Positions 13,873 to 48,363 of a DNA stretch of 64,000 nt are shown here, one piece after another; the first letter of the stretch is position 1, and each line of letters begins with the position of its first letter. This DNA comes from Escherichia phage vB_EcoS-26175I. The notes under the pieces were generated by a model, which saw nothing but the letters and a program-made list of their open reading frames with translations, did not search any database and was not told the DNA's origin. The position numbers were made by a program, and so were the translations under genes. The stretch is taken from the sequence record NC_133255.1, one strand, 5' to 3'.

Positions 13873-14152
13873 CTACATTTTTCAGAAATTTGATGCCTTT
13901 CTTTTTCTTCTTATATTTCCACGTTAACGGGTTCTGTCGATTATGAACGCTTGAGATCTTTGTCTCGTCAAAGTTCTTCAATACCATGTAATCACATGCC
14001 AACTGCTCTAGTGGAATGGTTTCTCCATCAAAAGCATAAACATAAGGCTGTTGACTAGCACGATAATGATAGACTTTGTTAATTCTACATTTCAGCGACT
14101 TATCCGCGCAGTAAATAAAGAAGTTTTCAGGATGCATCAGCATCTCCTTCAA
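13865..14152 (-). CDS. hypothetical protein
   Basis: 95 aa ORF. Confidence 0.3.
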   Translation of the reverse strand: MKEMLMHPENFFIYCADKSLKCRINKVYHYRASQQPYVYAFDGETIPLEQLACDYMVLKNFDETKISSVHNRQNPLTWKYKKKKKGIKFLKNVVA

Positions 14153-14154
14153 AT

Positions 14155-14229
14155 TGGTGCACCCTGTTCGTATCGAACGAACCTCTCAAGCTCTTCAGGC
14201 AAGCGCTAATCCATCTCAGCTAAAGGTGC
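14155..14229 (-). tRNA. tRNA-Phe (anticodon GAA), weak anticodon stem
   Basis: T-arm gttcg-tatcgaa-cgaac; standard register gives loop ctGAAga; anticodon stem has two U-U mismatches. Confidence 0.5.
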
Positions 14230-14235
14230 AAATAT

Positions 14236-14312
14236 TGGCAAACCTACTAGGACTCGAACCTAGACCGTACGGTTTTGGAGACCGACATGCTGTCCAGTAA
14301 CACTCTAGGAAT
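14236..14312 (-). tRNA. tRNA-Trp (anticodon CCA)
   Basis: T-arm ctagg-actcgaa-cctag; loop ctCCAaa; acceptor has mismatches. Confidence 0.5.
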
Positions 14313-14320
14313 GCAGAAAT

Positions 14321-14397
14321 TGGCGTCCTGTGCGGGGATCGAACCCGCAAATCCTACCTTGAAAGGGTAGTGACTTTACCAGTTTGTCTAACAGGAC
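14321..14397 (-). tRNA. tRNA-Glu (anticodon TTC)
   Basis: perfect acceptor gtcctgt/acaggac, T-arm gcggg-gatcgaa-cccgc, anticodon stem ctacc/ggtag; loop ctTTCaa. Confidence 0.75.
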
Positions 14398-14404
14398 TTA
14401 AATT

Positions 14405-14486
14405 TGGTGGGGGATGGAGGACTCGAACCTCCGCGTGGTATACCCGGTCTACAGCCAGGCGCCGTCGCCACTGAGCCAATCCCCCC
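14405..14486 (-). tRNA. tRNA-Tyr (anticodon GTA)
   Basis: 79-nt body, perfect acceptor gggggat/atccccc, T-arm ggagg-actcgaa-cctcc; loop ctGTAga. Confidence 0.65.
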
Positions 14487-14676
14487 CTATTTGAATGAAA
14501 AGTAAGTCGGTTAAACTCAAGGTGGAATATTTCAGGATTTCCTGACTTTACCCCTAAAAGTCAACTCGCTTAATTACTTCTCATTCAGATATGTTTCCAA
14601 ATTAGATAACTATTATATCAAGTTTTATGGCACTGAGCAAGTCAAATTTTAAAGAACTTGCTCAGTGCTGTATTAG

Positions 14677-14952
14677 TTAGTCGAACTTAGGAGTGACAGT
14701 TAAGGAGAACGGAAGTTCAAAAACTTCTTCACCCTCATCACTAACAGTGATTACACGACCTTTAAGTTCAGACATTGAAATATCAATATCAGCTTTTGCA
14801 TCTGGAGCCATGCCAGCTTCAACACATTTAGCTTTAATTTCCGGCAGAAGTTCTACATCATAGAAATAAAGCCATTCAATCTCACCTTCCCAGCCTTCCC
14901 AGGATTTACAGATTGCACTTTCAATACCAGTTGTTATAACACGATTTTGCAT
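14677..14952 (-). CDS. hypothetical protein
   Basis: 91 aa ORF; promoter 14983-15012 upstream. Confidence 0.35.
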   Translation of the reverse strand: MQNRVITTGIESAICKSWEGWEGEIEWLYFYDVELLPEIKAKCVEAGMAPDAKADIDISMSELKGRVITVSDEGEEVFELPFSLTVTPKFD

Positions 14953-14982
14953 TCGTTAACTCCTTCATCAATTTATATAACT

Positions 14983-15012
14983 ATTATACCAGAAATTTAA
15001 AGCAAAAGGCAA
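14983..15012 (-). promoter_or_regulatory. sigma70-type early promoter
   Basis: conserved element upstream of 14677-14952. Confidence 0.5.
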
Positions 15013-15042
15013 GTACATTTTTAAAAATTCTGTTTGGAGGAG

Positions 15043-15249
15043 CTAAACTCCAGATTCTTCAGCCAGATCAAGCCCAACCAATGTGATTGCCATAATAGCC
15101 GCGCCATGTTCTTTCTCTCCTAGCTCTTTGGCTTGAGTGAGAATATTTAGGAACTGCTTGTGGAAATCTTCCACTTCTTCTGTCATGCCTGCTTCAGAAA
15201 TAATACCTTTCAGCATAAAGCGCTGTGCAGTAATTTCAGGATTAGCCAT
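15043..15249 (-). CDS. hypothetical protein
   Basis: 68 aa ORF. Confidence 0.3.
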   Translation of the reverse strand: MANPEITAQRFMLKGIISEAGMTEEVEDFHKQFLNILTQAKELGEKEHGAAIMAITLVGLDLAEESGV

Positions 15250-15400
15250 TTATTATCTCCAGTTATTTAGAATGTAAGCCAAACTTAGGATCATAGCGAT
15301 CATAAGTCGTACCATTAGTTGAAGTCTTGATGCTATGAAAACGACAGTACATAAATTTACGTAGTGCTTTCTTAATAGCTTTCATTTTATTTCCTTAATT

Positions 15401-15478
15401 TGGTAGGGGTGGTGGGATTCGAACCCACAAAACCTGAATTTTAAGTCCAGTACCTATGCCAATTCGATTACACCCCCA
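15401..15478 (-). tRNA. tRNA-Leu (anticodon TAA), short variable loop
   Basis: T-arm gtggg-attcgaa-cccac; loop ctTAAaa; type-I length is unusual for Leu. Confidence 0.5.
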
Positions 15479-15486
15479 TGTAATCT

Positions 15487-15834
15487 TTAGAGTTCGTAAC
15501 CCTGAATATATCGAGCAAAACCAGTAATCTCGAACTGAATTGCCCATGCTACTTCCATATGCTCAATCTTACTAAAATGAGCGTCAGACTGTTCTAGGAA
15601 ATAACGAGAGATTATAGGGAACTCAATGTCAAAATCTTCCTTATCCATACCATAGAAGAAGTTTCCAGAAATATTACGAACTTCACGAAAGAAATCCTCA
15701 ATCTGAAAATCCATCAGAGGATAAGTATATTCCTCTTTGCTATCATCCGTTTGGAAGAAGCGGAAATGCACAAGGCAAGAGCCAATCAGATTTACTGCTG
15801 GAGTAGTGTAAATATCCATGTTAACCTCGATCAA
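15487..15834 (-). CDS. hypothetical protein
   Basis: 115 aa ORF. Confidence 0.35.
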   Translation of the reverse strand: MIEVNMDIYTTPAVNLIGSCLVHFRFFQTDDSKEEYTYPLMDFQIEDFFREVRNISGNFFYGMDKEDFDIEFPIISRYFLEQSDAHFSKIEHMEVAWAIQFEITGFARYIQGYEL

Positions 15835-16006
15835 TATCTAGAGAAATTCCAAATTCTGGATTAATACCAGAACCATTACATGCTGCGCATTCCCACTCTT
15901 CAAAACGCATATCGCCAGGTTCAGCATCATTAATAGTACCTGTTCCATGGCAGTGAGTACACATGCACTCTTCTAGTTCTTGTTTAAGCTCTTGAAACTT
16001 AGACAT
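15821..16006 (-). CDS. small Cys-rich protein (two CxxC pairs)
   Basis: 61 aa; CTHCHGTG...CAACNGSG. Confidence 0.3.
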   Translation of the reverse strand: MSKFQELKQELEECMCTHCHGTGTINDAEPGDMRFEEWECAACNGSGINPEFGISLDIDRG

Positions 16007-16023
16007 ATAGTCTCCTAGTTAAT

Positions 16024-16102
16024 TGGTGGCTCCCGGAGGATTCGAACCTACCTACCTTTCGCTTATGAGGCGACGGCTCATACCAAATGAGCTTGAGAAC
16101 CA
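16024..16102 (-). tRNA. tRNA-Met (anticodon CAT)
   Basis: T-arm with attcgaa loop; D-arm gctc/gagc; loop ctCATaa. Confidence 0.55.
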
Positions 16103-16106
16103 AATT

Positions 16107-16196
16107 TGGAGGAAGAAGTGGGAATCGAACCCACAAGGCTATGTTTCAAACCGACAGATTAGCAATCTGCTGCAATACCGTTATGCTATTCTTCCT
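16107..16196 (-). tRNA. tRNA-Ser (anticodon GCT), long variable arm
   Basis: 87-nt body, perfect acceptor ggaagaa/ttcttcc, T-arm gtggg-aatcgaa-cccac; loop ttGCTaa. Confidence 0.7.
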
Positions 16197-16705
16197 TAAT
16201 TATTTCGGGCATATTCCCCATGAAGTTTCTCTCTCAGTTGAATTAGAGCTTCATTTGCTGCTTCAGGAGTACTGTGCAGCCCTGCGGAGTATGACTTACC
16301 TTTAAACATTATTCTATCCTGCCACTGACCAGATGCTTTGTGGTAGGATACTCCCTTAAATCCGCTAGTATTCCTAGAAGATTTACTAGCATTATGAGTA
16401 TTAGTGGTACTATCCGCTGCTCTTAAATTTAAAGGATGTATGTTTAACTTATTGCAGTCTTTATGATCAATCATTTCCGGCCTATACCCATAATATAGTA
16501 TAAATACTATGATATGAGCTAAGTAATCTTGGTGATCAACGTTAACTCTGATATACCCAGAGCTTTTGTGCAAAGATCCCGCAGGTTTATTGGCAAACTT
16601 AGTATTAAATATCTTCTCCTCTCTGGAGTTTCCGGAGAGCGGATTCCACACCAGTACACCATCTTCTAAACGGAATCTATAAAGTATAGACTCATAGTCT
16701 AGCAT
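16196..16705 (-). CDS. free-standing HNH homing endonuclease with AP2-like DNA-binding region
   Basis: 169 aa; IDHKDCNKLNIHPLNLRAA (HNH) followed by SGFKGVSYHKASGQWQ. Confidence 0.55.
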   Translation of the reverse strand: MLDYESILYRFRLEDGVLVWNPLSGNSREEKIFNTKFANKPAGSLHKSSGYIRVNVDHQDYLAHIIVFILYYGYRPEMIDHKDCNKLNIHPLNLRAADSTTNTHNASKSSRNTSGFKGVSYHKASGQWQDRIMFKGKSYSAGLHSTPEAANEALIQLREKLHGEYARNN

Positions 16706-16738
16706 AAATAGTTCCTAATCTTACAAATTTATGAATAT

Positions 16739-16767
16739 ATTATACAGAAAATTTCGGCATTAAGCAA
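16739..16767 (-). promoter_or_regulatory. sigma70-type early promoter
   Basis: attata 16739-16744, aagcaa 16762-16767. Confidence 0.55.
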
Positions 16768-16775
16768 GTGAAATT

Positions 16776-17072
16776 TTACTGAACATTGCACTGATATACC
16801 TGTTTGATACGTGTCACTGACTTCTTAGTTGGGTTGATAGAAGAACCCTGCCACCAACGTGATTCTGAGCTGAGAACAGCACCAGGAACAGCTTGTTCTT
16901 TTGGCAGAACAATATCAAAACACTGTTCACCCATATTATCTTTAATGTGCGACCAAATGTCTAGAGTAAATCGTTCTAGCTTATTACAAACTTGAACTTG
17001 ACAAAGTTCCTGTTGTGGAGCAGCAAATACAGAAGTAGATACTAGAGTCAATGCAAGTACAATGCGTTTCAT
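16776..17072 (-). CDS. secreted small protein (signal peptide)
   Basis: MKRIVLALTLVSTSVFAAPQ signal peptide; promoter 17103-17131. Confidence 0.35.
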   Translation of the reverse strand: MKRIVLALTLVSTSVFAAPQQELCQVQVCNKLERFTLDIWSHIKDNMGEQCFDIVLPKEQAVPGAVLSSESRWWQGSSINPTKKSVTRIKQVYQCNVQ

Positions 17073-17102
17073 ATTTGATTCCTCTCTCAAATTTATAAAT
17101 AT

Positions 17103-17131
17103 ATTATACAGAAATTTTCTATATTAAGCAA
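17103..17131 (-). promoter_or_regulatory. sigma70-type early promoter
   Basis: attata 17103-17108, aagcaa 17126-17131. Confidence 0.55.
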
Positions 17132-17139
17132 GTGAAAAT

Positions 17140-17170
17140 TTCTGTATAATAGCCCTCGCTTAGAGGGCTA
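17140..17170 (-). terminator. hairpin downstream of pnuC
   Basis: stem agccctc / gagggct, loop gctta. Confidence 0.4.
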
Positions 17171-17178
17171 TAGCTACT

Positions 17179-17871
17179 TTATTTGTTAACGCGTACAAAG
17201 TATCCTTTATAGGCTCCCATAATAGAGTTACCTAAGAATACTAGCCACATTGCTAGGATTGCATAAGATGCACCTGTAGATTGAGTAGTTACAAGCCAAA
17301 TGTACACAGTACCAATGTTAATAGCAATCCAGATCAGCCACTGCTCGGCATACTGCTTAACCATAAGCCACATAGCGATCACACTACCTACCGCAGTAAA
17401 TGCATCCAACATTGGGAATGGATCAGCCGTAGTAGCTAAGAAACTACCATACCCTAACGTGGCTACTGCTAGAATCCCTAGAGTCAGCAGAGCTTGGACT
17501 TTAGTCAGAATCTTAGTTGGAACATCTGGCAGATTACTTGGCTTATTTTTATGCCATAAGTACATTCCATAAAACTGCATAGGAACGTAGTATAGCAGGT
17601 TTAGTGCAGCGTTACCATAAAGATCTGCGTTTAAAGCTGTAATACCATAGGTAAGAACACCAACTAAGCCCCAAATATAGTTAGAAACACGTCCTTTAGC
17701 AACCAAAATAACACAAACTACGTTGGTTATCGCAGTAGCCCAATCTAGAGCTGTACCATTATAGTTTGCTAAACTAATAAAGGCGACTGCCATAAACAGC
17801 CACAGATATTCCAAAGGTTTCCAGTTTTTAAAGTCATTTACAAGATAGTTAGTCATATTAAAACTCTCCAA
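17179..17871 (-). CDS. pnuC: nicotinamide riboside transporter PnuC-like membrane protein
   Basis: 230 aa polytopic membrane protein, Trp-rich TM helices, immediately downstream of the NadR-like gene. Confidence 0.6.
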   Translation of the reverse strand: MESFNMTNYLVNDFKNWKPLEYLWLFMAVAFISLANYNGTALDWATAITNVVCVILVAKGRVSNYIWGLVGVLTYGITALNADLYGNAALNLLYYVPMQFYGMYLWHKNKPSNLPDVPTKILTKVQALLTLGILAVATLGYGSFLATTADPFPMLDAFTAVGSVIAMWLMVKQYAEQWLIWIAINIGTVYIWLVTTQSTGASYAILAMWLVFLGNSIMGAYKGYFVRVNK

Positions 17872-18913
17872 CGTTAAAGTGATGAATCAGCCAGTCTACT
17901 GCGTTTACTGCTTCGTCCATACGAACTTTGTAGTCCGGGGAGTCGATGTAAACAGTACGTCCTTCAGGGAACTGATTTGGAAATTCTTTCTTCATCTGCT
18001 CGAACAGTTCAGAAGTAATTGAACGATCGGAGTTAATACGTAAACCATCATCTACCCACTTGACAGTAGGCGCTAGAACAATTACTAAATCGTAATGTTC
18101 TTCTTTTGCAATTGCTGTAACCACAGGATTCTTACGATGTTCATAAAGTCTGTGGTAGAACTCAGTAATAAAAGCATTTGTATCCACAAACATGATCTTA
18201 TTTGCAGTACGTTCTGCTTCAAACTCTAGCTCTTTGTGTCTGAACGCAATTTTACTATAATCTTCGCTGGTAAGCAGATTTTCGTTACCAACTAGATCAA
18301 CTTCACAATACGTTCGACCATATTCTTCTACCCACGAAGTGTTGTATAGCTTCGCAAGGTATTTTGTTAAAGTAGTCTTTCCCGAGCTTTCAGTCCCAAT
18401 GAGTACAACCTTACGCACGTAATCTTTACGAACTACGCTAGGAAGAAACTCCCAATACTTCATAAGATCATTACGAATCATTGTAGCTGAGATTGGAACA
18501 CGAGTCCGATCAGAATCTACAATATAATGACCAAACTTCGGCAGATATTTCTTATATTCTGCATCATAGTCTAGTTCGCTAGAGAAAATGGTGATCTCAG
18601 GCAAATGTCCATAATTTTCATTAAGGATTCTAGCATATTCCGGCCAACCATTCGGATATTCAGGAATATCATCTTCAATAATGTACTCTACCGAAACGTG
18701 CTCAATATCCGCGTAAGTTTGTTCTAACCAACGAAGACGATTCTTTAACTGTAATACTTCCTGATCACGTGTGTTCTGCTTATCCAGCCAACGATTATCA
18801 TGACTAACTACAATAATAACTCGTTCACACATAGTTGCTGCTGTGTTTATTAGGTTAATATGACCACGCGTTAATGGTGCGAACTTACCAATTACTAGAC
18901 CAGTCTTAATCAT
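17858..18913 (-). CDS. nadR: NadR-like bifunctional NMN adenylyltransferase / ribosylnicotinamide kinase (no HTH domain)
   Basis: N-terminal nucleotidyltransferase motif GKFAPLTRGH; C-terminal Walker A GTESSGKTT; Met start at 18913 with SD and promoter 18944-18972. Confidence 0.75.
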   Translation of the reverse strand: MIKTGLVIGKFAPLTRGHINLINTAATMCERVIIVVSHDNRWLDKQNTRDQEVLQLKNRLRWLEQTYADIEHVSVEYIIEDDIPEYPNGWPEYARILNENYGHLPEITIFSSELDYDAEYKKYLPKFGHYIVDSDRTRVPISATMIRNDLMKYWEFLPSVVRKDYVRKVVLIGTESSGKTTLTKYLAKLYNTSWVEEYGRTYCEVDLVGNENLLTSEDYSKIAFRHKELEFEAERTANKIMFVDTNAFITEFYHRLYEHRKNPVVTAIAKEEHYDLVIVLAPTVKWVDDGLRINSDRSITSELFEQMKKEFPNQFPEGRTVYIDSPDYKVRMDEAVNAVDWLIHHFNVGEF

Positions 18914-18943
18914 GTTTGATTCCTCTCTCAAATTTATAAATAT

Positions 18944-18972
18944 ATTATACAGAGAATTTAGCATTCAAGCAA
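18944..18972 (-). promoter_or_regulatory. sigma70-type early promoter driving nadR-pnuC
   Basis: attata 18944-18949, aagcaa 18967-18972. Confidence 0.55.
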
Positions 18973-19110
18973 TCGAATTTTTAAACTTTTTAGTGGAAAA
19001 ATCTCAAGGCATTTAGTGGTAGCACGTTGTTGCTGCAATAATAGTATATGATTCTAAAGAATTAAATACTAAAGACCTTAGTTGAATAACTTATGGGATT
19101 TTCTTTTACC

Positions 19111-19152
19111 TTAAATACAGAAAAGCCCGCGCTCTCGGAGGAAACGCGGGCT
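19111..19152 (-). terminator. rho-independent terminator downstream of SPFH gene
   Basis: stem agcccgcg / cgcgggct followed on minus strand by tttctgtattt. Confidence 0.55.
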
Positions 19153-19176
19153 TGTTTCGAAGATTACGTGGAACTA

Positions 19177-20121
19177 TTACTTATTACGCATATCCATAAT
19201 CATTTGACCATCGTAGCCAGTACCGACAACAGTCTGCGGTACACCACCTTGGTATTTTTCAGCACGAAGCATTTCAACTTCCAGCTGCTTCCAACGAATC
19301 ATTTCAGGAGTAATGGTACGTTGCAGAGCGGCGTTAGCTTCAGCTTCTTTCTTAGCTGCGTACAGTTTAGCATCTGCGTCACGTTCGTTAGCTACTGCCA
19401 TGTTTTCACGAGCGGAACGATCTGCCTCAGCTTGCTTAACTTTCTGCTGTGCTTCTTGTTCAACACGAGCCAGTTCAGCTTTTGCAGCGTTAACTTGTTC
19501 TTCACGAACTTTAGTGTTCTGTACCTGTTCCATGATTACCGGTGGCAGAGTAATATCCTGAAGGAATACTTGCTTAACCGTGTAACCATAAGGACGCGCG
19601 TACTCTTCTACCTCTTGCTGAATAGCAGTTTGCAGTTGAGCCTGAATCTTAGCGTCGAACAGATCTTGTGCTTTTGGTACGGACTTACCAAACTCACGAA
19701 TCGTAGACAGCATCTTCTCTTCAACGTATTTGTTCAGAGCCTGATCCTGAGTACCTGCGTTAACACGGTTCATAGGAGCTTTAGCACCATCAAACTGCAA
19801 CATAACGGTAATGTCAACAGTAGACTTAAACTTATCCTGGCTAGGAACCTGAAGTTTATCCAGTTTCATGGAAATATCTTTCGTACTAAAAGTATCAAAA
19901 GAAGCAAATGGGTTAACAATATGGAAGCCTGGCAATACAGGATTAGGGCTAACTTTACCCAGGAAGGTTTGAGTCTTAACAGTACCATCCTGAACAACTG
20001 TATAGGAATTGAGAGCCAGAATAAGAGCACCAAGACCAACAGCAGCACCAACACCCCAACGTTTAATAGTACGAATTACTTTTTGCTCAGAAGTCAGTTC
20101 TTTAGTGTTTTTAGTAAACAT
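19177..20121 (-). CDS. SPFH/band-7 (prohibitin/HflC-like) membrane protein
   Basis: N-terminal TM, SPFH-like core, C-terminal Ala/Glu/Gln-rich coiled coil; terminator hairpin 19111-19152 downstream. Confidence 0.65.
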   Translation of the reverse strand: MFTKNTKELTSEQKVIRTIKRWGVGAAVGLGALILALNSYTVVQDGTVKTQTFLGKVSPNPVLPGFHIVNPFASFDTFSTKDISMKLDKLQVPSQDKFKSTVDITVMLQFDGAKAPMNRVNAGTQDQALNKYVEEKMLSTIREFGKSVPKAQDLFDAKIQAQLQTAIQQEVEEYARPYGYTVKQVFLQDITLPPVIMEQVQNTKVREEQVNAAKAELARVEQEAQQKVKQAEADRSARENMAVANERDADAKLYAAKKEAEANAALQRTITPEMIRWKQLEVEMLRAEKYQGGVPQTVVGTGYDGQMIMDMRNK

Positions 20122-20132
20122 ATATTTCCTTA

Positions 20133-20333
20133 TTATTTAGAAGAGTTATCTACTACAGTTACTTTAGTTGCAGAAATAAATAGGCTAGCATCCACAGCAA
20201 ATTCAGGAGCTTTGATATCTCCATTATGAAATATGACTATACCGGAGACTACTTCAAATGCTAGTGCTGTAACATCGGTGGTCTTTAGTTGTGAATGTTC
20301 ACCTACTACTTTTACTATATATCGTGTTTTCAC
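20133..20333 (-). CDS. hypothetical protein
   Basis: 66 aa ORF. Confidence 0.3.
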   Translation of the reverse strand: MKTRYIVKVVGEHSQLKTTDVTALAFEVVSGIVIFHNGDIKAPEFAVDASLFISATKVTVVDNSSK

Positions 20334-20359
20334 TTTATTTTCCTAGCAGTTAATAAAAT

Positions 20360-20434
20360 TGGCCGAGGTGACAGGATTCGAACCTGCATAAAGGAATTTA
20401 GAAGACTCCTGCCTATCCCTTAGACTACACCCCG
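20360..20434 (-). tRNA. tRNA-Arg (anticodon TCT)
   Basis: T-arm acagg-attcgaa-cctgc; anticodon stem ggaat/actcc (one GU); loop ctTCTaa. Confidence 0.65.
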
Positions 20435-20442
20435 AGAATAAA

Positions 20443-20952
20443 TTACTTAATGATTTCGTTCAGTTTGGTTTGGCTTTCTAGCGCTGCTTTAGCTGATTTC
20501 TCAGCATCCCTAGCAGCACGTCGTGCTTTAGAGTCAATCAATAGCTTGTCATACTTGATATTAACGAACTCTTTAATATCATGGTAGAAACGTTGATGTG
20601 CCATGTATTCTTGTGCATCTGCATCGTAACAGCGCATATAGAAGTAATCACTAGGCTCTCCACGAAGTGTACGCTCTAGAATCTGAGGTCGATAACGACG
20701 TAATGTATCTTTCGCCATTTTTATTTCATCAGTTTCTTCACCAAGCTGAACTAGGTGATAAAGACGAGTATTGTCGATGTAATCCAAAGCTACGCTAAAG
20801 TATTCACCTTCTCGAAGATTGTATCCTGTAATCTCACTCATTTTCTCACGAGCTTGATCAAGTGTCAGGCGTTCTGGAAAATGTGCTATATGCAGAATAC
20901 GAGGGCAACACATTTCTTGATGATCAAAGATACAAGTTGTTCCTAGATTCAT
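20443..20952 (-). CDS. hypothetical protein
   Basis: 169 aa ORF downstream of the 1-kb ORF-poor region. Confidence 0.4.
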   Translation of the reverse strand: MNLGTTCIFDHQEMCCPRILHIAHFPERLTLDQAREKMSEITGYNLREGEYFSVALDYIDNTRLYHLVQLGEETDEIKMAKDTLRRYRPQILERTLRGEPSDYFYMRCYDADAQEYMAHQRFYHDIKEFVNIKYDKLLIDSKARRAARDAEKSAKAALESQTKLNEIIK

Positions 20953-21921
20953 ATTGATTCCTTTTGTTAGGTATTTTTAAGAACTCTCGTAAAAGTCCTT
21001 AAAGATACCCGGCGGTAGGTAGGGTCAGCCCCCTCAGATTAAGCTCTGCAGCCCTTCCGTCAGACAATATCTTCCAGTTTAAGTCAGGGTGACTTTGTGG
21101 TTATTCAGCTAAGGCTGATCGGCAGCTCTTAGGTCATGACTCCTCGTCGCTCTTTACTCACCGGCTAGGAAGTTATCTCGAGTTCTTCCTAGCTCTTTAG
21201 TCGTGCCATTAAGGTGCCTTCTAAGAGACTTACCTTTTCCCACTTTCGATTTGGGCATGTATCAGGTAAGGGTAGCCAAATCAGCATCCTAGTCCTACGG
21301 GGTCTCATCAAATTACATACCACCGCTTTTCGATATGTAATGCCCATGTCTATACGGGAGAAGAAAATGGGCATCTTTCTCTTCGTCTGATAGCTTGAAA
21401 AACGACTCCTCATGGAGGAAAAACTTCACTATCTAGGCTAAAGCCTAAAGTTCTTCTTTAATCCGGCAAAGCAAAACCGTAGTATATACTTTTCAGGAAT
21501 GGTTGGTTAGTCTGGAACCAACTACCGCGTGGTTTTGGCAGTGCACAGCTGCCTGCGATTGCTTCGCCATTAGAAGCACCAGTTATCCAACTCTTTCCGA
21601 CCGTGGGACTCGAACCCACATCTTCAGGCGGTGAAGCCCTAATAATACCTATTATACTAGGACGGCAGTGTTGTTACATAAGTGGTTTCGGCACCCCACT
21701 AACATAAACTAGAGAAGAGTTTACGAGATTTCGGGACAGCTCCCGAGTTTTCCGCAGATTTTCAGTTCCCTATCAATAGCAATAAGCGTTAGCTCGTAGC
21801 CTCTCTCAGAGTACTTACTAGTCTCCAACTCACCGACTCTATTCAGTGGAATAGCTATCCTAGTAGGAGTCACTAAACTCACTCAGCGTAATCGGCTCGC
21901 TGTTCTCTAATTTATGAATCT

Positions 21922-21950
21922 ATTATACAGAATTTTGAAGCGTTTAGCAA
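21922..21950 (-). promoter_or_regulatory. sigma70-type early promoter reading into the 1-kb ORF-poor region
   Basis: attata 21922-21927, tagcaa 21945-21950. Confidence 0.5.
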
Positions 21951-21958
21951 ATCAATTT

Positions 21959-22393
21959 TTAATTAAATTCGCCAGCAACCTGAGCAGCAACTTTACCCTC
22001 GTAACGACCAGGAAACTCTTCCTTAATCGCTTTCATTAGCTGGCCTTTAGTGATTCCAGAATTTAATTTAACCAGTTCGGCAAAGTAATTACGAATCTGT
22101 ACTTCTGATAACTGCTCTAACGCGTATTCGTATTCTAGACCCGCTAACAGATCGAGATATTCAGCATCCGGAGTATATTCAATGTTTGCCTTTTCAGCAG
22201 CCGCCTGAGTATTTTCGATTGCTTTGAACTGCGATTTAATCCAGTTAGTAAATTCTAACTTAGTTACGCAGTCCTTATCAATACGCTGCAAGTCACCTAA
22301 AATCGTACTTAGGTGCTTAACCGACACAGTGTCACCACGTTTGCGAGCAGCTTCAATCAACTCTCGCAGTACACGAATCATATTCGTACCCAT
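21959..22393 (-). CDS. hypothetical protein
   Basis: 144 aa ORF. Confidence 0.4.
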   Translation of the reverse strand: MGTNMIRVLRELIEAARKRGDTVSVKHLSTILGDLQRIDKDCVTKLEFTNWIKSQFKAIENTQAAAEKANIEYTPDAEYLDLLAGLEYEYALEQLSEVQIRNYFAELVKLNSGITKGQLMKAIKEEFPGRYEGKVAAQVAGEFN

Positions 22394-36003: not shown

Positions 36004-37878
36004 ATGAATCGCAATGAAGAACTAAAGTATAAAGGAATGCAGTCCTTGATTCGAAACTGCAAAGAAATTATCGAAGGTTCAGCAGATGAAGAGCTGCTGT
36101 TTAATAATGCCAATAAGCCCTCAGAACGTTTCCCTACACAAAGGGATATGCTTGCAGGGGAATTGAGTAAATATCTGATTCTGGAAGAAATGCCAATCCA
36201 GATTCGAAATGCTCACATGATTGGTGATATTCACTTCCATGATGCTGATTACGCTGCGTTAGGTATGACTAACTGTTGCCTGGTTGCTTTGGAAGATATG
36301 TTGAAGAATGGTATGAAGGTTGGTAATGCTGAAATCAGTACACCAAACTCTATTACTACTGCGGCTGCTATCACAGCTCAGATTATCACTCAGGTTAGTT
36401 CACATCAATATGGTGGTACTTCTGTAGACCGATTAGATGAAGTACTGGCTCCTTATGTTCGTAAGTCTTATGATAAGAATCATGCGTTTGCAAAACGTTG
36501 GACTAAGGATGAAGCCAAAGCATCTGTAATGGCTACGGAAATGACTGAGAAAGAAGTTTACGATGCCTGTCAGGGCCTGGAGTATGAAATCAATACGATG
36601 TTCAACTCTAATGGTCAGAGTCCATTTATTACCTTTGGTTTTGGTCTAGGAACTTCCTGGGAAGCACGTCTTGTACAGAAAGCAATCTTAGAAGTGCGTA
36701 TGGATGGTTTGGGTATCAATAAACGTACAGCTATCTTCCCTAAACTGGTATTTGTTTTGCGTGATGGCGTAAACATGAAACCTGGTGATGTTAACTATGA
36801 TATCAAGAAGTTAGCTATGAAATGTACTGCCGAACGTATGTACCCCGACTATATCAGTTATGATAAGGTTGTAGAAGTTACTGGTGACTATAAAGTCTCT
36901 ATGGGTTGTCGTTCATTCCTGGCTGCTGCGGAAGATGGTGAAACTTCTGGTCGTAACAACTTAGGCGTTGTTTCCGTAAACCTTCCTCGAATCGCTATCG
37001 AAGCAGAAGGAAATATTGATCTATTCTTCGATCTGCTTGAGCTGCGTGTGGATACCGCGTTAAAAGCATTGGAGTGGAGGGTTGATCGCTTAAAATACAT
37101 TCAAGCTAAAGCTGCGCCCATCCTCTATATGTCAGGAGCCTTTGGATTACGTCTGGGACCCGATGAATATGTATTTGATCATTTCTACAAGCGTGCTTCT
37201 GTATCTCTAGGATATATTGGTTGCCACGAAATGTTGCAGCTCATGTTTGGTAAAGATGTAGATACAATGTCTGAGTCTTGTATCAAGTTCGTTCAACGTG
37301 TGCTACAATATATGCGTGATCGTGCTGATCAGAAGAAGGAAGAGACTCAGTTAGGTTATAGTCTGTATGCTACACCATCTGAATCTCTGTGTGATCGCTT
37401 CTGTCGTCTAGACCGTGAGTACTTCCCAGAGCATGAGGATATTCTGGCTAAAGGATACTACACTAACTCCCATCACCTTGATGTAGAACGTAAGGTTGCT
37501 CCAAATGTGAAATTTGATTATGAGTCTAACTTTACTCCTATTGCTTCTGGTGGGTGCATTTCCTACGTGGAATTACCTGACATGAAGAAATTCCCAGATG
37601 CCCTAGAATGGGTAATTAACTATGCTGCAAGTAAAGTTCACTACTTTGGTATTAATACTCCAGTTGATTCTTGTGGTGAGTGTGGATTCTTAGGCGAAAC
37701 AATTGCTTCTGAAGATGGATTTAAATGCCCAATTTGTGGCAACCATGATCCTGAGACTCTTGAGGTAACACGTCGTGTTTGTGGGTACCTTGGTAATCCA
37801 GGTGCACGCCCATTTAACCCAGGTAAACAGCATGAGGTTATGGGACGAATCAAGCATGCAGATGTAAGAGCTAAATAA
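36004..37878 (+). CDS. nrdD: anaerobic ribonucleoside-triphosphate reductase (class III)
   Basis: 624 aa; C-terminal Zn ribbon CGECG...CPICG and glycyl radical motif RRVCGYLG; consensus promoter and RBS upstream. Confidence 0.9.
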   Translation: MNRNEELKYKGMQSLIRNCKEIIEGSADEELLFNNANKPSERFPTQRDMLAGELSKYLILEEMPIQIRNAHMIGDIHFHDADYAALGMTNCCLVALEDMLKNGMKVGNAEISTPNSITTAAAITAQIITQVSSHQYGGTSVDRLDEVLAPYVRKSYDKNHAFAKRWTKDEAKASVMATEMTEKEVYDACQGLEYEINTMFNSNGQSPFITFGFGLGTSWEARLVQKAILEVRMDGLGINKRTAIFPKLVFVLRDGVNMKPGDVNYDIKKLAMKCTAERMYPDYISYDKVVEVTGDYKVSMGCRSFLAAAEDGETSGRNNLGVVSVNLPRIAIEAEGNIDLFFDLLELRVDTALKALEWRVDRLKYIQAKAAPILYMSGAFGLRLGPDEYVFDHFYKRASVSLGYIGCHEMLQLMFGKDVDTMSESCIKFVQRVLQYMRDRADQKKEETQLGYSLYATPSESLCDRFCRLDREYFPEHEDILAKGYYTNSHHLDVERKVAPNVKFDYESNFTPIASGGCISYVELPDMKKFPDALEWVINYAASKVHYFGINTPVDSCGECGFLGETIASEDGFKCPICGNHDPETLEVTRRVCGYLGNPGARPFNPGKQHEVMGRIKHADVRAK

Positions 37879-37977: not shown

Positions 37978-38196
37978 ATGGCAAAAGTACCACAAGAATT
38001 TACGGATGGAATTAAGGCAGATCTAGATGTAATGCTAATGGCCCAATGGGAGTCTGGCTTCCGAGATGGAATTGATTGTTGTGTGGCCGTGCTCGATACT
38101 ATTAGTTGGCAGCTTATTCAATCTGGAAATGATGCAGAAGGCAACCTTCTAGCTAACCTTTCTAAACAAATTAGGGAAATGAAATGCGCAGATTAA
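37978..38196 (+). CDS. hypothetical small protein
   Basis: SD GAGAGGAG before ATG 37978; promoter 37920-37948. Confidence 0.3.
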   Translation: MAKVPQEFTDGIKADLDVMLMAQWESGFRDGIDCCVAVLDTISWQLIQSGNDAEGNLLANLSKQIREMKCAD

Positions 38197-39035
38197 TTAT
38201 TGTTAGTGGTGCAGGTTTGAGTGTAGACAGTGGTGTTCGTGCTTTCCGTACTGATACTTCTAGTGGAAAATCTTTGTGGGATGAGTACGATCTAGAGGAA
38301 GTATGTAGCTTGCCTAACTTTGAAGCTGGCTTCCGTCGCTTCTGTGGTGAAGATGATCCTAACTACTTCAGTGCTCGTTTCCCTGGCATTGATGAAGATG
38401 GTAACGATCTGTATCTCAAGACTCATGAGTTCTACAACATGCGTCGTCAGGAATTACAGACTGTTGAGCCTAACATTGCCCATCTGCGAATTGCAGAATG
38501 GTTCCAGCGTTATGGTGCGGATAGCGTGAAGAACTTCACTACTAACGTTGATGACCTTCTGGAACGTGCTGGTATCCCTCGTGATGAAATCATCCATGCT
38601 CACGGATACTTGAAAGAGGTGATCTATCGTCGGGGTCGCAATCAAATCATCGAAGATGTTGGATACACTGCAATTGTTCCTGAAGATTACGAATGGGTAA
38701 AACCAAACGTGGTGTTCTTTGGTGAGACAGCTCCGTGGTACATGGGTCAAATCAACCTGTTTGATACTCTTACTAGCAATGACATGGTTATTGTGGTGGG
38801 TTGTAGTAACCAAGTTATCAACTTCAACTGGGAATTATTTCCTGCTGTATGTCGTGGAACTAAGATGATGGTTGTTAACCCACAAGTTCGTTATGACGAG
38901 CAGCTTGAGTATGAGAAACGTGGTGTTACTGTATGGCGTGCTGGAGCTGCCGAAGTTTTTGGTAACAAGCATTTCATTGATCAAGTTGAAGCCTTTATGG
39001 AAGGAACTATTTATGCACCAGAAAAACATAGGTGA
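38184..39035 (+). CDS. Sir2-family (sirtuin-like) NAD-dependent protein, no zinc-ribbon module
   Basis: GAGLSVDSGVRAFR (cf. GAGISxxSGIPxFR), TTNVDDL, HAHG, KPNVVFFGE, VIVVGCS; the four Zn-binding Cys are absent. Confidence 0.6.
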   Translation: MRRLIIVSGAGLSVDSGVRAFRTDTSSGKSLWDEYDLEEVCSLPNFEAGFRRFCGEDDPNYFSARFPGIDEDGNDLYLKTHEFYNMRRQELQTVEPNIAHLRIAEWFQRYGADSVKNFTTNVDDLLERAGIPRDEIIHAHGYLKEVIYRRGRNQIIEDVGYTAIVPEDYEWVKPNVVFFGETAPWYMGQINLFDTLTSNDMVIVVGCSNQVINFNWELFPAVCRGTKMMVVNPQVRYDEQLEYEKRGVTVWRAGAAEVFGNKHFIDQVEAFMEGTIYAPEKHR

Positions 39036-44416: not shown

Positions 44417-44445
44417 TTTGCTTTCAGGAAAAATTTTCTGTATAA
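44417..44445 (+). promoter_or_regulatory. sigma70 promoter
   Basis: ttgctt about 44418-44423, tgtataat ending 44445; SD GAGAGAGGAG. Confidence 0.5.
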
Positions 44446-44477
44446 TAGATTCATAAATTTGAGAGAGGAGTTTAAAT

Positions 44478-47005: not shown

Positions 47006-47200
47006 ATGACAATAACACTTCCAAAGATTCAAGCAAAACTTAATTTGCTCTCCATGGCAAGAAGCAACTATCAGGATAGTATCGGCACCCCAAACCAGAA
47101 AGCATACAAAGATGCATGGTTGAAAGAAGCTGCTGATTTAGCTGGTATGGCTGCTCAGTATAATAAAGAACTCAAAATGGAAATCGCAGACGATGAATAA
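47006..47200 (+). CDS. hypothetical protein
   Basis: 64 aa ORF. Confidence 0.3.
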   Translation: MTITLPKIQAKLNLLSMARSNYQDSIGTPNQKAYKDAWLKEAADLAGMAAQYNKELKMEIADDE

Positions 47201-48164
47201 TGTAAAAGACTTTATCAAACGTTGTCAAGAAGCGTACTACCAGGGAATGAGTCTTATTTCCGATGAAGAATATGATCGTCTAATTAAAAGATTCCCTCTA
47301 GAGGAAGAAATCGGACCGAAAGGTGATATCCCTCATTTGTATCGTATGTATTCTTTGCAGAAAGTCTATTATGGTCGTGGTGATAAATCTCCGTTCAATC
47401 CATTAGGTCAGGTTGAAACTGATAAGTTAGATGGTTGTGCGATTTCCCTATTATATATTAATGGTGAGTTTGTTCAAGCGTTAACTCGTGGTAACGGTAT
47501 TCTAGGGAATGATGTAACGCATAATGTTAAAATGCTGAACATCCCCAAAACTATTTCCCAAAAAGTACCAACTCAAATCACTGGTGAAGTTCTCATTACT
47601 AAAGAAGTAGAGAACAAACGTAACTATGCTTCTGGTGCTATTAACCTGAAAGATAGTGATGATTTCATGCAACGTATTGGTGAAGGTGGTTTAATCTTCG
47701 TTGCATATGGTATCCAGTGTTCAGCGGAAACAGTCGGTATTACAGAAGCCTATTTAAAAGATATGCTTTGGCTAGAGAATGAGAACTTCTTGACAGTTGT
47801 TAATGTTCGTTCCTTCTTTAAATGGATTCCGACAGATGGTAAAGTTGTTCGCATTAACGACAATAATAAATTCTTCCGTGAAGGTTGGACTAATAAATTT
47901 CCTCGTGGTGCATTTGCTATTAAAGAGGATGAAGAAGGCGAAATTACCACACTTGTTAAAGTTGAATGGCAAGTAGGGGCTTCTGGTAAGGTAACTCCAG
48001 TTGGTTATTTCGAACCGGTGATTATTGATGATGCCACAATCGTTAAAGCAACTCTTAATAACGTTGATTATATTAACGCTCTCGATTTAGAGATCGGTTG
48101 CCAGATTCGAGTGATTCGTGCTGGTGGTGTAATCCCTTGTATAGTAGAGCGAGTATACGACTAA
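47193..48164 (+). CDS. NAD-dependent DNA ligase, N-terminal (adenylation/OB) part
   Basis: N-terminus EEYDRLIKRF like LigA Ia domain; adenylation lysine motif KLDG. Confidence 0.75.
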   Translation: MNNVKDFIKRCQEAYYQGMSLISDEEYDRLIKRFPLEEEIGPKGDIPHLYRMYSLQKVYYGRGDKSPFNPLGQVETDKLDGCAISLLYINGEFVQALTRGNGILGNDVTHNVKMLNIPKTISQKVPTQITGEVLITKEVENKRNYASGAINLKDSDDFMQRIGEGGLIFVAYGIQCSAETVGITEAYLKDMLWLENENFLTVVNVRSFFKWIPTDGKVVRINDNNKFFREGWTNKFPRGAFAIKEDEEGEITTLVKVEWQVGASGKVTPVGYFEPVIIDDATIVKATLNNVDYINALDLEIGCQIRVIRAGGVIPCIVERVYD

Positions 48165-48307
48165 TTCGTAACCCTTTGCTACCCGTTTACCATGTCGGAA
48201 TTATAAAGTGGTTATTGACATTTTCGCCGCTTAGGTATATACTATTATCATTCAGTTGAGGGATAGAAAGTTATGGCGAGGGTAAGCAAAGTTAGTTAAA
48301 ATTGTAG

Positions 48308-48336
48308 TTGCTAAATGCTTAAATACTTGCTATAAT
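48308..48336 (+). promoter_or_regulatory. sigma70 promoter between the two ligase ORFs
   Basis: ttgcta 48308-48313, tataat 48331-48336. Confidence 0.55.
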
Positions 48337-48363
48337 ATTTATATAAATTGATAAGGAAGAAAT

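What the first reader, a model, noticed from the sequence alone, without database searches (positions are those of the whole stretch)
17179..18913. Phage-encoded NAD salvage pair: PnuC-like transporter plus NadR-like NMNAT/NR kinase under its own early promoter
A nicotinamide riboside importer and a bifunctional NMN adenylyltransferase/ribosylnicotinamide kinase form a two-gene unit with a dedicated promoter (18944-18972) and hairpin (17140-17170). NAD depletion is a common abortive-infection mechanism, so a phage route to rebuild NAD from nicotinamide riboside could act as counter-defence. Whether it does so here is untested.
Basis: partly seen in the sequence, partly recalled or inferred. 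Interest (0 to 1): 0.7.

Follow-up and report, generated by a model that had tools for sequence, protein, structure and literature searches.

The report
Phage NadR–PnuC vitamin B3 salvage operon
A T5-like phage carries its own early-expressed importer and two-step enzyme for turning nicotinamide riboside into NAD+. The gene pair is real, but it is already annotated, already proposed as a possible counter-defence route, and its enzyme has a solved structure.

Summary
A 351-aa NadR-type enzyme (18913→17858) has an NMN adenylyltransferase domain and a ribosylnicotinamide kinase domain but no HTH domain. One base downstream lies a 225-aa PnuC transporter (17856→17179). The pair is driven by a TTGCTT-17-TG-TATAAT promoter of the T5 N25/"repeat c" early type. 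It is preceded by a strong terminator and followed by a conserved hairpin that lacks a U-tract.

The window is an Epseptimavirus, 100% identical to Escherichia phage vB_EcoS-26175. About 200 such phages carry the pair, while T5 and other Tequintaviruses lack it at the same promoter. Unrelated phages (ICP1, jumbo, Bacillus, Enterococcus and Lak phages) keep the same nadR→pnuC order.

Catalytic motifs are invariant and dN/dS is 0.03–0.05. PDB entries 9x6f/9x6h hold a protein 347/351 identical to this one.

Osterman et al. 2024 already proposed this operon, in BASEL T5-like phages, as an untested NAD+ reconstitution route. I found no test of it. The predicted chemistry needs imported nicotinamide riboside or NMN, not the ADP-ribose and nicotinamide that defence NADases release. 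It is therefore best read as an early, host-independent NAD+ top-up. A counter-defence role is plausible but unproven. The finding is already known and of modest interest.

The parts
19123..19153 (-). Intrinsic terminator ending the upstream SPFH/band-7 gene. It isolates the nadR-pnuC unit from read-through.
   Evidence: 12-bp GC-rich stem followed by a T-run. Folding energy is -20.7 kcal/mol, z = -3.7. It aligns with the terminator and 'major nick 3' region of T5. Shivani has compensatory stem changes.
18944..18972 (-). Sigma-70 early promoter of the T5 N25/'repeat c' type: -35 TTGCTT (18972-18967), 17-nt spacer, extended -10 TG-TATAAT (18951-18944).
   Evidence: Read from the sequence. There are four cassette copies in the window. 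It is near-identical to the T5 promoter at 37,712-37,797 and similar to annotated early promoter T5P33. It is conserved in Bas26, UTK0009 and TrudiGerster and in Shivani, where it drives another gene.
18914..18937 (-). Predicted 24-nt leader with a Shine-Dalgarno GAGG (18925-18922) 8 nt before the ATG. The +1 position is placed by analogy with N25.
   Evidence: ATAAATTTGAGAGAGGA is invariant in all aligned cassette copies. The transcription start is inferred, not measured. No riboswitch or other Rfam family matches here.
17858..18913 (-). nadR-like gene: 351-aa bifunctional NMN adenylyltransferase (about residues 1-160) and ribosylnicotinamide kinase (about residues 165-330). It has no HTH domain.
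   Evidence: Pfam and NCBIfam hits. PDB 9x6f is 347/351 identical, and 1lw7 matches at 1.1e-54. Invariant motifs are G9 K10 F11, G17 H18, I141 S142 A143 R147, G173 E175 S176 G178 K179 and D244. The AF2 model has pLDDT 93.4 and TM 0.80-0.83 to 8x7f and 1lw7. dN/dS is 0.04.
17179..17856 (-). pnuC gene: 225-aa Pnu-family nicotinamide riboside transporter, probably translationally coupled to nadR (1-nt gap, GGAG upstream).
   Evidence: PF04973 at 9e-43. TIGR01528 equivalog scores 120 bits against a cut-off of 42. It aligns to 4qtn PnuC at 8e-33 over residues 9-215. phrog_1880 at 2e-72. dN/dS is 0.03.
17149..17171 (-). Conserved stem-loop 8 nt after the pnuC stop (9-bp stem ATAGCCCTC/GAGGGCTAT, 5-nt loop). 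It has no U-tract, so it is a possible weak terminator or a 3'-end stabiliser.
   Evidence: Folding energy is -17.1 kcal/mol, z = -3.2. The terminator scan did not call it. The stem is invariant while the loop varies in four phages.
17074..17131 (-). Second copy of the promoter/5'UTR cassette, which drives the next gene (98-aa ORF 16779-17072). It marks the downstream boundary of the unit and forms a direct repeat with the nadR promoter.
   Evidence: An exact 37-nt repeat of 18951-18915 lies at 17110-17074. Alignments show the conservation.

Best explanation
This is an early-expressed nicotinamide riboside (NR) salvage module of an Epseptimavirus, a T5-like phage. It does not depend on host regulation.

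Soon after infection, host RNA polymerase reads the N25-type promoter and makes one nadR-pnuC transcript. PnuC inserts into the inner membrane and lets NR diffuse in. The kinase domain of the NadR-like protein phosphorylates NR to NMN with ATP, which traps it in the cell. The adenylyltransferase domain then joins NMN and ATP to give NAD+.

The protein lacks the HTH domain of enterobacterial NadR, so it is an enzyme and not a repressor. Its expression escapes the host's NAD-responsive repression and the phage's shut-off of host genes.

The net effect is to raise or hold the NAD+ pool of the infected cell. The inputs are external NR, and NMN released by NAD-dependent ligases. This would help whenever NAD+ is limiting, including partial relief from NAD+-depleting defences. 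It differs from NARP1 and NARP2 because it does not rebuild NAD+ from the NADase products.

Shown here: gene structure, domains, motifs, fold, purifying selection, promoter homology and conserved synteny. Inferred: substrates, timing, the effect on NAD+, and any benefit to the phage.
For: - Domains pass curated cut-offs. The NadR match starts at profile position 65 of 411, so there is no HTH.
- The motifs T15-x-G17-H18, I141-S-A-T-x-x-R147, Walker A G173-x-E-S-x-G-K179 and D244 are invariant or nearly so across 44 homologues down to 43% identity.
- The AF2 model (pLDDT 93.4) superposes on NadR structures solved with NAD or NR bound: 8x7f, 1lw7 and 6gyf, TM 0.74-0.83.
- PDB 9x6f/9x6h, named nicotinamide-nucleotide adenylyltransferase, is 347/351 identical. 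Its reconstructed sequence is 100% identical to the protein of many Salmonella Epseptimaviruses.
- PnuC aligns along its whole length to the NR-bound transporter 4qtn.
- Both genes are under strong purifying selection, dN/dS 0.03-0.05 at dS of about 1.2.
- The nadR→pnuC adjacency recurs in unrelated phages at 26-47% identity: ICP1, S4-7, pEa_SNUABM_12 and the Vibrio D-phages.
- The promoter is homologous to annotated T5 early promoters.
- PHROGs files both proteins under auxiliary metabolic genes.
- The same pathway reading appears in Osterman et al. 2024 and in the jumbo-phage study PMC11662467.
Against: - No activity, expression or NAD+ measurement is available here.
- The NadR-like protein misses the stricter TIGR01526 cut-off (270 against 341). 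PnuC misses the enterobacterial PnuC subfamily cut-off (66 against 335). Both proteins are therefore diverged from the characterised enteric ones.
- E. coli and Salmonella already have nadR and pnuC (established knowledge), so the phage copies are redundant in function.
- T5 and other Tequintaviruses replicate without the pair while carrying the same NAD-dependent ligase and Sir2-like genes. The module is therefore dispensable.
- The downstream hairpin is not a clear terminator, so the 3' end of the transcript is uncertain.
Confidence: 0.75

Rival explanations
1. The pair is a dedicated counter-defence system. It exists mainly to defeat NAD+-depleting immunity (Thoeris, DSR, SIR2-HerA and similar) by resynthesising NAD+ fast enough for the phage to finish, as a third route beside NARP1 and NARP2.
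For: - Osterman et al. 2024 proposed this for this very operon in BASEL phages. Iyer et al. 2022 list phage NadR among NAD+ synthesis genes that counter NADase effectors.
- The pair is an accessory module with patchy distribution. It is present in about 200 Epseptimavirus records and absent from Tequintaviruses at the same promoter.
- It was acquired independently or kept in many unrelated phage lineages.
- It is expressed early from a strong promoter.
Against: - The predicted substrates are NR or NMN plus ATP. NADases release ADP-ribose and nicotinamide, and neither protein is predicted to use either. This follows from established NadR and PnuC chemistry and from the domain content.
- Flux is limited by external NR, while an active NADase keeps destroying the product.
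- No experiment was found in the searched literature.
Confidence: 0.35
2. The pair is housekeeping support for the phage's own NAD+ consumers. The adenylyltransferase domain recycles the NMN released by the phage's split NAD-dependent DNA ligase directly back to NAD+. It also compensates for NAD+ used by the phage Sir2-like protein. PnuC only supplements this.
For: - The window encodes a Sir2-like protein (38184-39014) and NAD-dependent ligase subunits A and B (47193-48161, 48367-49143) (phrog_2162).
- The ligase reaction yields NMN, which is the direct NMNAT substrate (established biochemistry).
Against: - T5 has the same ligase and Sir2-like genes but no nadR-pnuC, so the consumers do not require it.
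- A rough estimate from general knowledge puts the ligations in one burst at 10^4-10^5, against about 10^6 NAD+ molecules per cell. Ligase demand alone therefore looks small.
- This model does not explain why a transporter and the kinase domain are strictly co-conserved.
Confidence: 0.25
3. The NadR homologue is a transcriptional regulator, as many GenBank records name it ('NadR transcriptional regulator'). On this reading it represses host NAD genes.
For: Only the annotation in several phage records supports this.
Against: - The match to the trifunctional NadR profile covers positions 65-407 of 411. The protein begins directly with the GKFAPLTxGH nucleotidyltransferase motif.
- No HTH domain appears in Pfam.
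- The AF2 model shows only the two enzymatic domains.
Confidence: 0.02
4. The transporter and enzyme act on a different riboside or nucleotide. Other Pnu-family members carry thiamine, riboflavin or other substrates, and the product might be a modified dinucleotide rather than NAD+.
For: - Both proteins are diverged from the characterised enteric orthologues. They fall below TIGR01526 and PRK15397 and are 28-35% identical to solved NadRs.
- Pnu-family members differ in substrate (established knowledge).
Against: - PnuC passes the NR-specific equivalog TIGR01528.
- It is paired with an NR kinase, the classical marker of NR specificity.
- The NMNAT and kinase motifs are intact.
- The depositors of 9x6f name the protein nicotinamide-nucleotide adenylyltransferase.
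Confidence: 0.05

Closest known systems
Haemophilus influenzae / Lactococcus lactis NadR (bifunctional NMNAT + ribosylnicotinamide kinase; PDB 1lw7, 6gye/6gyf/6gzo) working with PnuC
   Same: - It has the same two-domain architecture and the same catalytic motifs.
- The predicted fold matches, TM 0.74-0.81.
- It has the same partnership with a PnuC transporter and the same predicted route, NR → NMN → NAD+.
   Different: - It is only about 28-35% identical.
- It is encoded by a virulent phage and driven by a constitutive T5-type early promoter rather than by NAD-responsive control.
- Its closest cellular relatives (57% identity, 349 aa) are also HTH-less.
Enterobacterial trifunctional NadR (E. 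coli/Salmonella; NCBIfam PRK08099; cryo-EM 8x7f) and PnuC (PRK15397)
   Same: The enzymatic core matches profile positions 65-407 above the curated cut-off. The fold has TM 0.83 to 8x7f.
   Different: - It has no N-terminal HTH repressor domain.
- PnuC scores far below the enteric PnuC subfamily cut-off, 66 against 335.
- It is therefore not a recent copy of the host genes.
Phage NAD+ reconstitution pathways NARP1 (Adps + Namat) and NARP2 (Nampt + Nmnat), Osterman et al. 2024
   Same: It is a two-gene phage operon predicted to end in NAD+. That paper itself names it as a possible further pathway.
   Different: - The enzymes and substrates differ. NARP1 uses ADP-ribose and nicotinamide, and NARP2 uses nicotinamide and PRPP, both of which are NADase products or derived from them.
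- NadR-PnuC needs imported NR or pre-existing NMN.
- Counter-defence activity was shown for NARP1 and NARP2 but has not been tested for this pair.
NadR-PnuC pairs of other phages (Vibrio phage ICP1, Klebsiella jumbo phage FBKp24, Bacillus, Enterococcus, Lactobacillus LP65, Lak megaphages; jumbo-phage NAD clusters of PMC11662467)
   Same: They share the gene order nadR→pnuC on one strand, the same domains and the same PHROG families.
   Different: - They are 23-61% identical.
- Some jumbo phages add NadM or NadV, so they can also use nicotinamide. The window shows no such gene next to the pair.
PDB 9x6f / 9x6h 'Nicotinamide-nucleotide adenylyltransferase'
   Same: It is 347/351 identical to the window protein. 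The reconstructed sequence is 100% identical to the allele of many Salmonella Epseptimaviruses.
   Different: - It differs at four conservative positions (I34V, V73I, L171I, R260S).
- No paper describing the entries is in the searchable library.
- The entries are absent from the structure library that holds releases up to 2026-04-08. That points to a 2026 release.

Membership tests
NadR-type bifunctional NMNAT/ribosylnicotinamide kinase | N-terminal nucleotidyltransferase domain with (H/T)xGH and ISxTxxR motifs | tested here: met
   GKFAPLT15-R-G17-H18 and I141-S-A-T-M-I-R147 are present. G17, H18, A143 and R147 are invariant, and I141 and S142 are at least 90% conserved, in 44 homologues. These motifs align with GKFYPVHTGH and VSATKIR of 1lw7. 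PF01467 gives 4.7e-07.
NadR-type bifunctional NMNAT/ribosylnicotinamide kinase | C-terminal P-loop kinase domain with Walker A and Walker B | tested here: met
   G173-T-E-S-S-G-K179-T and F-V-D244-T-N are present. G173, E175, S176, K179 and D244 are invariant. PF13521 AAA_28 gives 1.7e-31.
NadR-type bifunctional NMNAT/ribosylnicotinamide kinase | Score above curated family cut-offs | tested here: inconclusive
   PRK08099 scores 252.2, above its cut-off of 201. TIGR01526 scores 270.5, below its cut-off of 341.15.
NadR-type bifunctional NMNAT/ribosylnicotinamide kinase | Two-domain NadR fold | tested here: met
   The AF2 model has pLDDT 93.4. Foldseek gives 8x7f at 7e-32 with TM 0.83 and 1lw7 at 1.6e-29 with TM 0.80.
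NadR-type bifunctional NMNAT/ribosylnicotinamide kinase | NR kinase and NMN adenylyltransferase activity | not testable with these tools
   The only support is by homology and by the depositors' name for the 99%-identical PDB entry 9x6f.
Trifunctional enterobacterial NadR (repressor) | N-terminal HTH DNA-binding domain | tested here: not met
   The profile match starts at position 65 of 411. The protein starts at the NMNAT motif, and no HTH domain appears in Pfam.
PnuC nicotinamide riboside transporter (Pnu family) | Full-length match to PF04973 / TIGR01528 above cut-off | tested here: met
   PF04973 scores 146.7 bits against a cut-off of 27.3. TIGR01528 scores 120.4 bits against a cut-off of 42.45.
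PnuC nicotinamide riboside transporter (Pnu family) | Collinear with the solved NR-bound PnuC, including the conserved EQW..W...N segment | tested here: met
   4qtn aligns at 8.2e-33, residues 9-215 against 12-225. AEQWLIWIAINIGT aligns with REQWALWIVVNILT. Which residues contact NR is recalled from memory and was not checked.
PnuC nicotinamide riboside transporter (Pnu family) | Genomic pairing with the trapping kinase (NadR RNK), the marker of NR specificity | tested here: met
   There is a 1-nt gap to nadR. The adjacency is conserved in unrelated phages.
PnuC nicotinamide riboside transporter (Pnu family) | NR transport | not testable with these tools
Phage NAD+ reconstitution pathway (NARP-type counter-defence) | Rebuilds NAD+ from the products of defence NADases (ADP-ribose and/or nicotinamide) | tested here: not met
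   The domain content predicts NR/NMN plus ATP chemistry only. The pair has no Nampt, Adps or Namat domains.
Phage NAD+ reconstitution pathway (NARP-type counter-defence) | Deletion sensitises the phage to NAD+-depleting defence systems | not testable with these tools
   Osterman et al. state that the pair was not examined. No later test was found.
T5 N25-type ('repeat c') early promoter | -35 TTGCTT, 17-nt spacer, TG-extended TATAAT, and the conserved initial transcribed sequence ATAAATTTGAGAGAGGA | tested here: met
   Alignment with T5 37,712-37,797 and with annotated early promoter T5P33 shows this. There are four copies in the window. That T5P33 equals the classical N25 promoter is my recollection.

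The most novel reading that the evidence does not exclude
The most novel reading not excluded is that NadR-PnuC is a third phage route for escaping NAD+-depleting immunity, one that depends on import. Its success would depend on nicotinamide riboside or NMN in the surroundings, for example in gut contents or released by neighbouring lysed cells. Escape from Thoeris/SIR2-type defence would then be conditional on nutrients. This could explain why Epseptimaviruses carry the cassette and Tequintaviruses do not. The cassette also appears to be gained and lost by recombination between the repeated early-promoter cassettes that flank it.
Probability: 0.3. Interest if true: 0.6.

Novelty: already known. 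Interest (0 to 1): 0.3.

Why it matters
NAD+ depletion is one of the commonest outcomes of bacterial anti-phage immunity, and phage routes that restore NAD+ shape host range. If this operon protects phages, it would add a precursor-import strategy to the two proven recycling pathways. It would also be relevant to the choice of T5-like Salmonella and E. coli phages for therapy or biocontrol. As it stands, the finding repeats an existing annotation and a published hypothesis. What this analysis adds is:

- The enzyme cannot be a repressor.
- The chemistry does not use NADase products.
- The module sits behind a conserved T5 early promoter, as a cassette flanked by repeats that Tequintaviruses lack.

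Tried and rejected
- **Literature.** Nine full-text searches looked for any test of phage NadR-PnuC, for 'NARP3', and for the PDB codes 9x6f/9x6h. Only the Osterman preprint's untested proposal, the Iyer survey and a jumbo-phage survey turned up.
- **Riboswitch or other RNA element.** An Rfam scan of 14000-22000 at E ≤ 1 found only tRNAs and two sub-threshold chance hits. The leader is about 24 nt, which is too short for a riboswitch.
- **Generic promoter and terminator scan.** It did not call the true promoter because the -35 matches at only 3 of 6 positions. It did not call the pnuC hairpin because there is no T-run. I therefore relied on homology to annotated T5 promoters.
- **Release date of 9x6f.** I looked for it through the Foldseek PDB library. 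The entry is absent from that copy, so the only conclusion is that it was probably released after 2026-04-08.
- **Covariation in the pnuC hairpin.** The stem is invariant in the four phages compared, so this test says nothing about structure.
- **The 368-aa ORF from 18964 and the antisense ORF 19093-20229.** I rejected both as artefacts of mechanical ORF calling.
- **Not run.** I did not run a PnuC structure prediction or a second deep protein search, because the assignment was already unambiguous.
Full report
**What is in the sequence.** Both genes lie on the minus strand.

- The upstream gene starts at ATG 18913 and ends with the stop at 17860-17858 (351 aa). The mechanically listed 368-aa ORF from 18964 begins inside the promoter and is not the real start. 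Relatives annotate a 1056-nt CDS.
- One base after that stop, ATG 17856 opens a 225-aa ORF that ends at 17181-17179. A GGAG lies just upstream, so translational coupling is likely.
- These coordinates match the finding exactly.

**Identity of the two proteins.**

- The 351-aa protein has a cytidylyltransferase-like domain (residues 7-147, 4.7e-07) and an AAA_28 P-loop kinase domain (168-314, 1.7e-31).
- It scores 252 bits against NCBIfam PRK08099 (NadR, cut-off 201). The match covers only profile positions 65-407 of 411, so the HTH repressor domain is missing. It falls short of the stricter TIGR01526 cut-off, 270 against 341.
- Catalytic motifs are intact in an alignment of 44 homologues down to 43% identity. 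In the TxGH motif G17 and H18 are invariant. In ISATxxR, A143 and R147 are invariant and I141 and S142 are at least 90% conserved. The Walker A residues G173, E175, S176 and K179 and the Walker B D244 are invariant.
- An AlphaFold model (pLDDT 93.4) superposes on solved NadR structures: 8x7f at TM 0.83, 1lw7 at 0.80 and the 6gy* entries at about 0.75.
- The 225-aa protein matches PF04973 (9e-43) and the nicotinamide riboside (NR) transporter equivalog TIGR01528 (120 bits against 42). It aligns over residues 9-215 with the solved PnuC 4qtn (8e-33). It does not reach the enterobacterial PnuC subfamily cut-off, 66 against 335.
- PHROGs places both proteins in the category of morons, auxiliary metabolic genes and host takeover.
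- Both genes are under strong purifying selection. dN/dS is 0.03-0.05 against relatives with dS of about 1.2.

**Transcription signals.**

- The promoter at 18972-18944 reads TTGCTT, a 17-nt spacer ending in TG, then TATAAT. A leader ATAAATTTGAGAGAGGAATCAAAC follows, and then the ATG.
- The generic scanner missed this promoter because TTGCTT matches the -35 consensus at only 3 of 6 positions.
- The 37-nt segment spanning the -10, leader and ribosome-binding site occurs four times in the window. Two copies are exact, at 18951 and 17110.
- The T5 record annotates the same element as 'putative early promoter' and 'repeat c'. The window copy at about 44439 and T5P33 match what I recall as the classical T5 N25 early promoter. 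That identification is from memory.
- Upstream, a strong terminator at 19153-19123 (-20.7 kcal/mol, with a T-run) closes the SPFH/band-7 gene.
- Downstream, a stem-loop lies at 17171-17149 (-17.1 kcal/mol, z = -3.2). Its stem is invariant in four phages. It has no U-tract and was not called as a terminator, so its role is uncertain. It may terminate weakly or stabilise the 3' end.
- No riboswitch or other Rfam family lies in the region.

**Where the window comes from and how the pair is distributed.**

- The region is 100% identical to Escherichia phage vB_EcoS-26175 II-V and 97-99% identical to many Salmonella, Escherichia and Citrobacter phages of the genus Epseptimavirus (Demerecviridae).
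- Many of these records already annotate the two genes as nicotinamide-nucleotide adenylyltransferase / ribosylnicotinamide kinase and PnuC-like transporter. Some name the first, wrongly, 'NadR transcriptional regulator'.
- The NadR-like protein is found in 789 of 50,697 phage records and PnuC in 777. About 205 are Epseptimaviruses at 80% identity or more. The rest are unrelated phages: Vibrio cholerae phage ICP1 at 46%, Klebsiella jumbo phages at 61%, and Bacillus, Enterococcus, Lactobacillus, Erwinia, Caulobacter and Lak megaphages.
- The order nadR→pnuC on one strand is kept wherever both hits could be compared in one record or in isolates of one phage.
- T5 itself and the Tequintavirus Shivani lack the pair.
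- In those two phages the orthologous intergenic region and promoter are conserved up to the start codon, but they drive a different gene.
- In the window, nadR-pnuC plus the hairpin is bracketed by two copies of the promoter cassette. This looks like a cassette that can be gained or lost by recombination between promoter repeats. That step is inference.

**Prior knowledge.**

- Osterman et al. 2024 (bioRxiv 10.1101/2024.02.11.579819) state that phage NadR genes usually sit in an operon with PnuC. They suggest that this could form another pathway for phage NAD+ production. Their Fig. S3 lists BASEL phages carrying the operon and says it was not examined.
- Iyer et al. 2022 (PMC9503650) list phage NadR among NAD+ synthesis genes.
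- PMC11662467 describes nadR-pnuC clusters in jumbo phages.
- The PDB holds 9x6f/9x6h, 'Nicotinamide-nucleotide adenylyltransferase', 347/351 identical to the window protein. The reconstructed sequence is 100% identical to the allele of many Salmonella Epseptimaviruses.
- These PDB entries are absent from the structure library covering releases up to 2026-04-08, and no paper citing them is in the searchable library.
- I found no paper that tests the counter-defence idea.

**Most likely mechanism.** Steps 2 and 3 below follow from homology to characterised NadR and PnuC systems and were not measured here.

1. Host RNA polymerase transcribes the pair early from the N25-type promoter.
2. PnuC lets NR diffuse in, and the kinase domain traps it as NMN.
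3. The adenylyltransferase domain makes NAD+ from NMN and ATP.
4. The protein has no HTH and has a phage promoter. The route therefore bypasses the host's NAD-responsive repression and survives the shut-off of host genes.

**How far this supports counter-defence.**

- Defence NADases yield ADP-ribose and nicotinamide, and neither protein is predicted to use either. The module is therefore an import-dependent top-up, not a reconstitution pathway like NARP1 or NARP2.
- It could still blunt NAD+ depletion when NR or NMN is available.
- A housekeeping role is the main rival. The phage encodes its own NAD+ consumers, a Sir2-like protein at 38184-39014 and a split NAD-dependent ligase at 47193-49143.
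- T5 has those same consumers without the pair, so the module is an accessory, not a requirement.

**Verdict.**

- The counter-defence interpretation is plausible and untested. It is also already published as a hypothesis.
- The finding is already known.

Noticed in passing
window 18972-18914 (-) and 17131-17074 (-); also 24769-24733 (-) and 44439-44475 (+): There are four copies of a T5 'repeat c'/N25-type early promoter plus 5'UTR cassette. The two flanking nadR-pnuC share an exact 37-mer. The nadR copy is orthologous to the promoter that drives a different gene in T5 and Shivani. nadR-pnuC therefore looks like a cassette inserted between promoter repeats.
   Followed up: partly
window 17149-17171 (-); L002 (Bas26) 21970-22075: The stem of the hairpin after pnuC is invariant in four phages. 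The 5-nt loop is TAAGC in the window and its reverse complement GCTTA in Bas26, which suggests the palindrome has inverted.
   Followed up: no
window 19123-19153; T5 AY587007 39,659-39,686: The terminator hairpin after the SPFH/band-7 gene aligns with the T5 region annotated as 'major single-stranded nick 3'. The window has a 1-nt deletion in the annotated nick motif, CCC-GCGC against CCCTGCGC. Shivani shows compensatory stem changes.
   Followed up: partly
window 38184-39014 (+): A phage Sir2-like gene lies here (phrog_2162, 1.6e-107; 97% identical to Bas26 bas26_0052). It is a potential NAD+-consuming enzyme of unknown role, and T5 has it too (gene cobb).
   Followed up: partly
window 47193-48161 (+) and 48367-49143 (+): A split NAD-dependent DNA ligase lies here, with subunits A and B more than 99% identical to those of Bas26. 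It is a phage NAD+ consumer that releases NMN.
   Followed up: partly
window 16196-16705 (-): An HNH homing-endonuclease ORF (F-TflVI-like) sits between the 98-aa gene and the tRNA genes. It is present in only some close relatives, since many hits begin just past it.
   Followed up: no
window 16779-17072 (-): A 98-aa ORF sits under the second promoter copy. Some records annotate it 'lipoprotein'. It has an N-terminal signal-like sequence (MKRIVLALTLVSTSVFAAP) but no obvious lipobox cysteine. It matches phrog_6894, of unknown function.
   Followed up: no
L002 (Bas26) 18227-19978; L006 (TrudiGerster) 675-1435: The space between the SPFH gene and nadR is variable. Bas26 has four extra opposite-strand ORFs there. 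TrudiGerster has two same-strand ORFs directly upstream of nadR. The window has only about 210 bp.
   Followed up: no
window 19093-20229 (+): This 378-aa ORF is antisense to the SPFH/band-7 gene. It has low-complexity, leucine/serine-rich content and no support, so it is almost certainly spurious.
   Followed up: no
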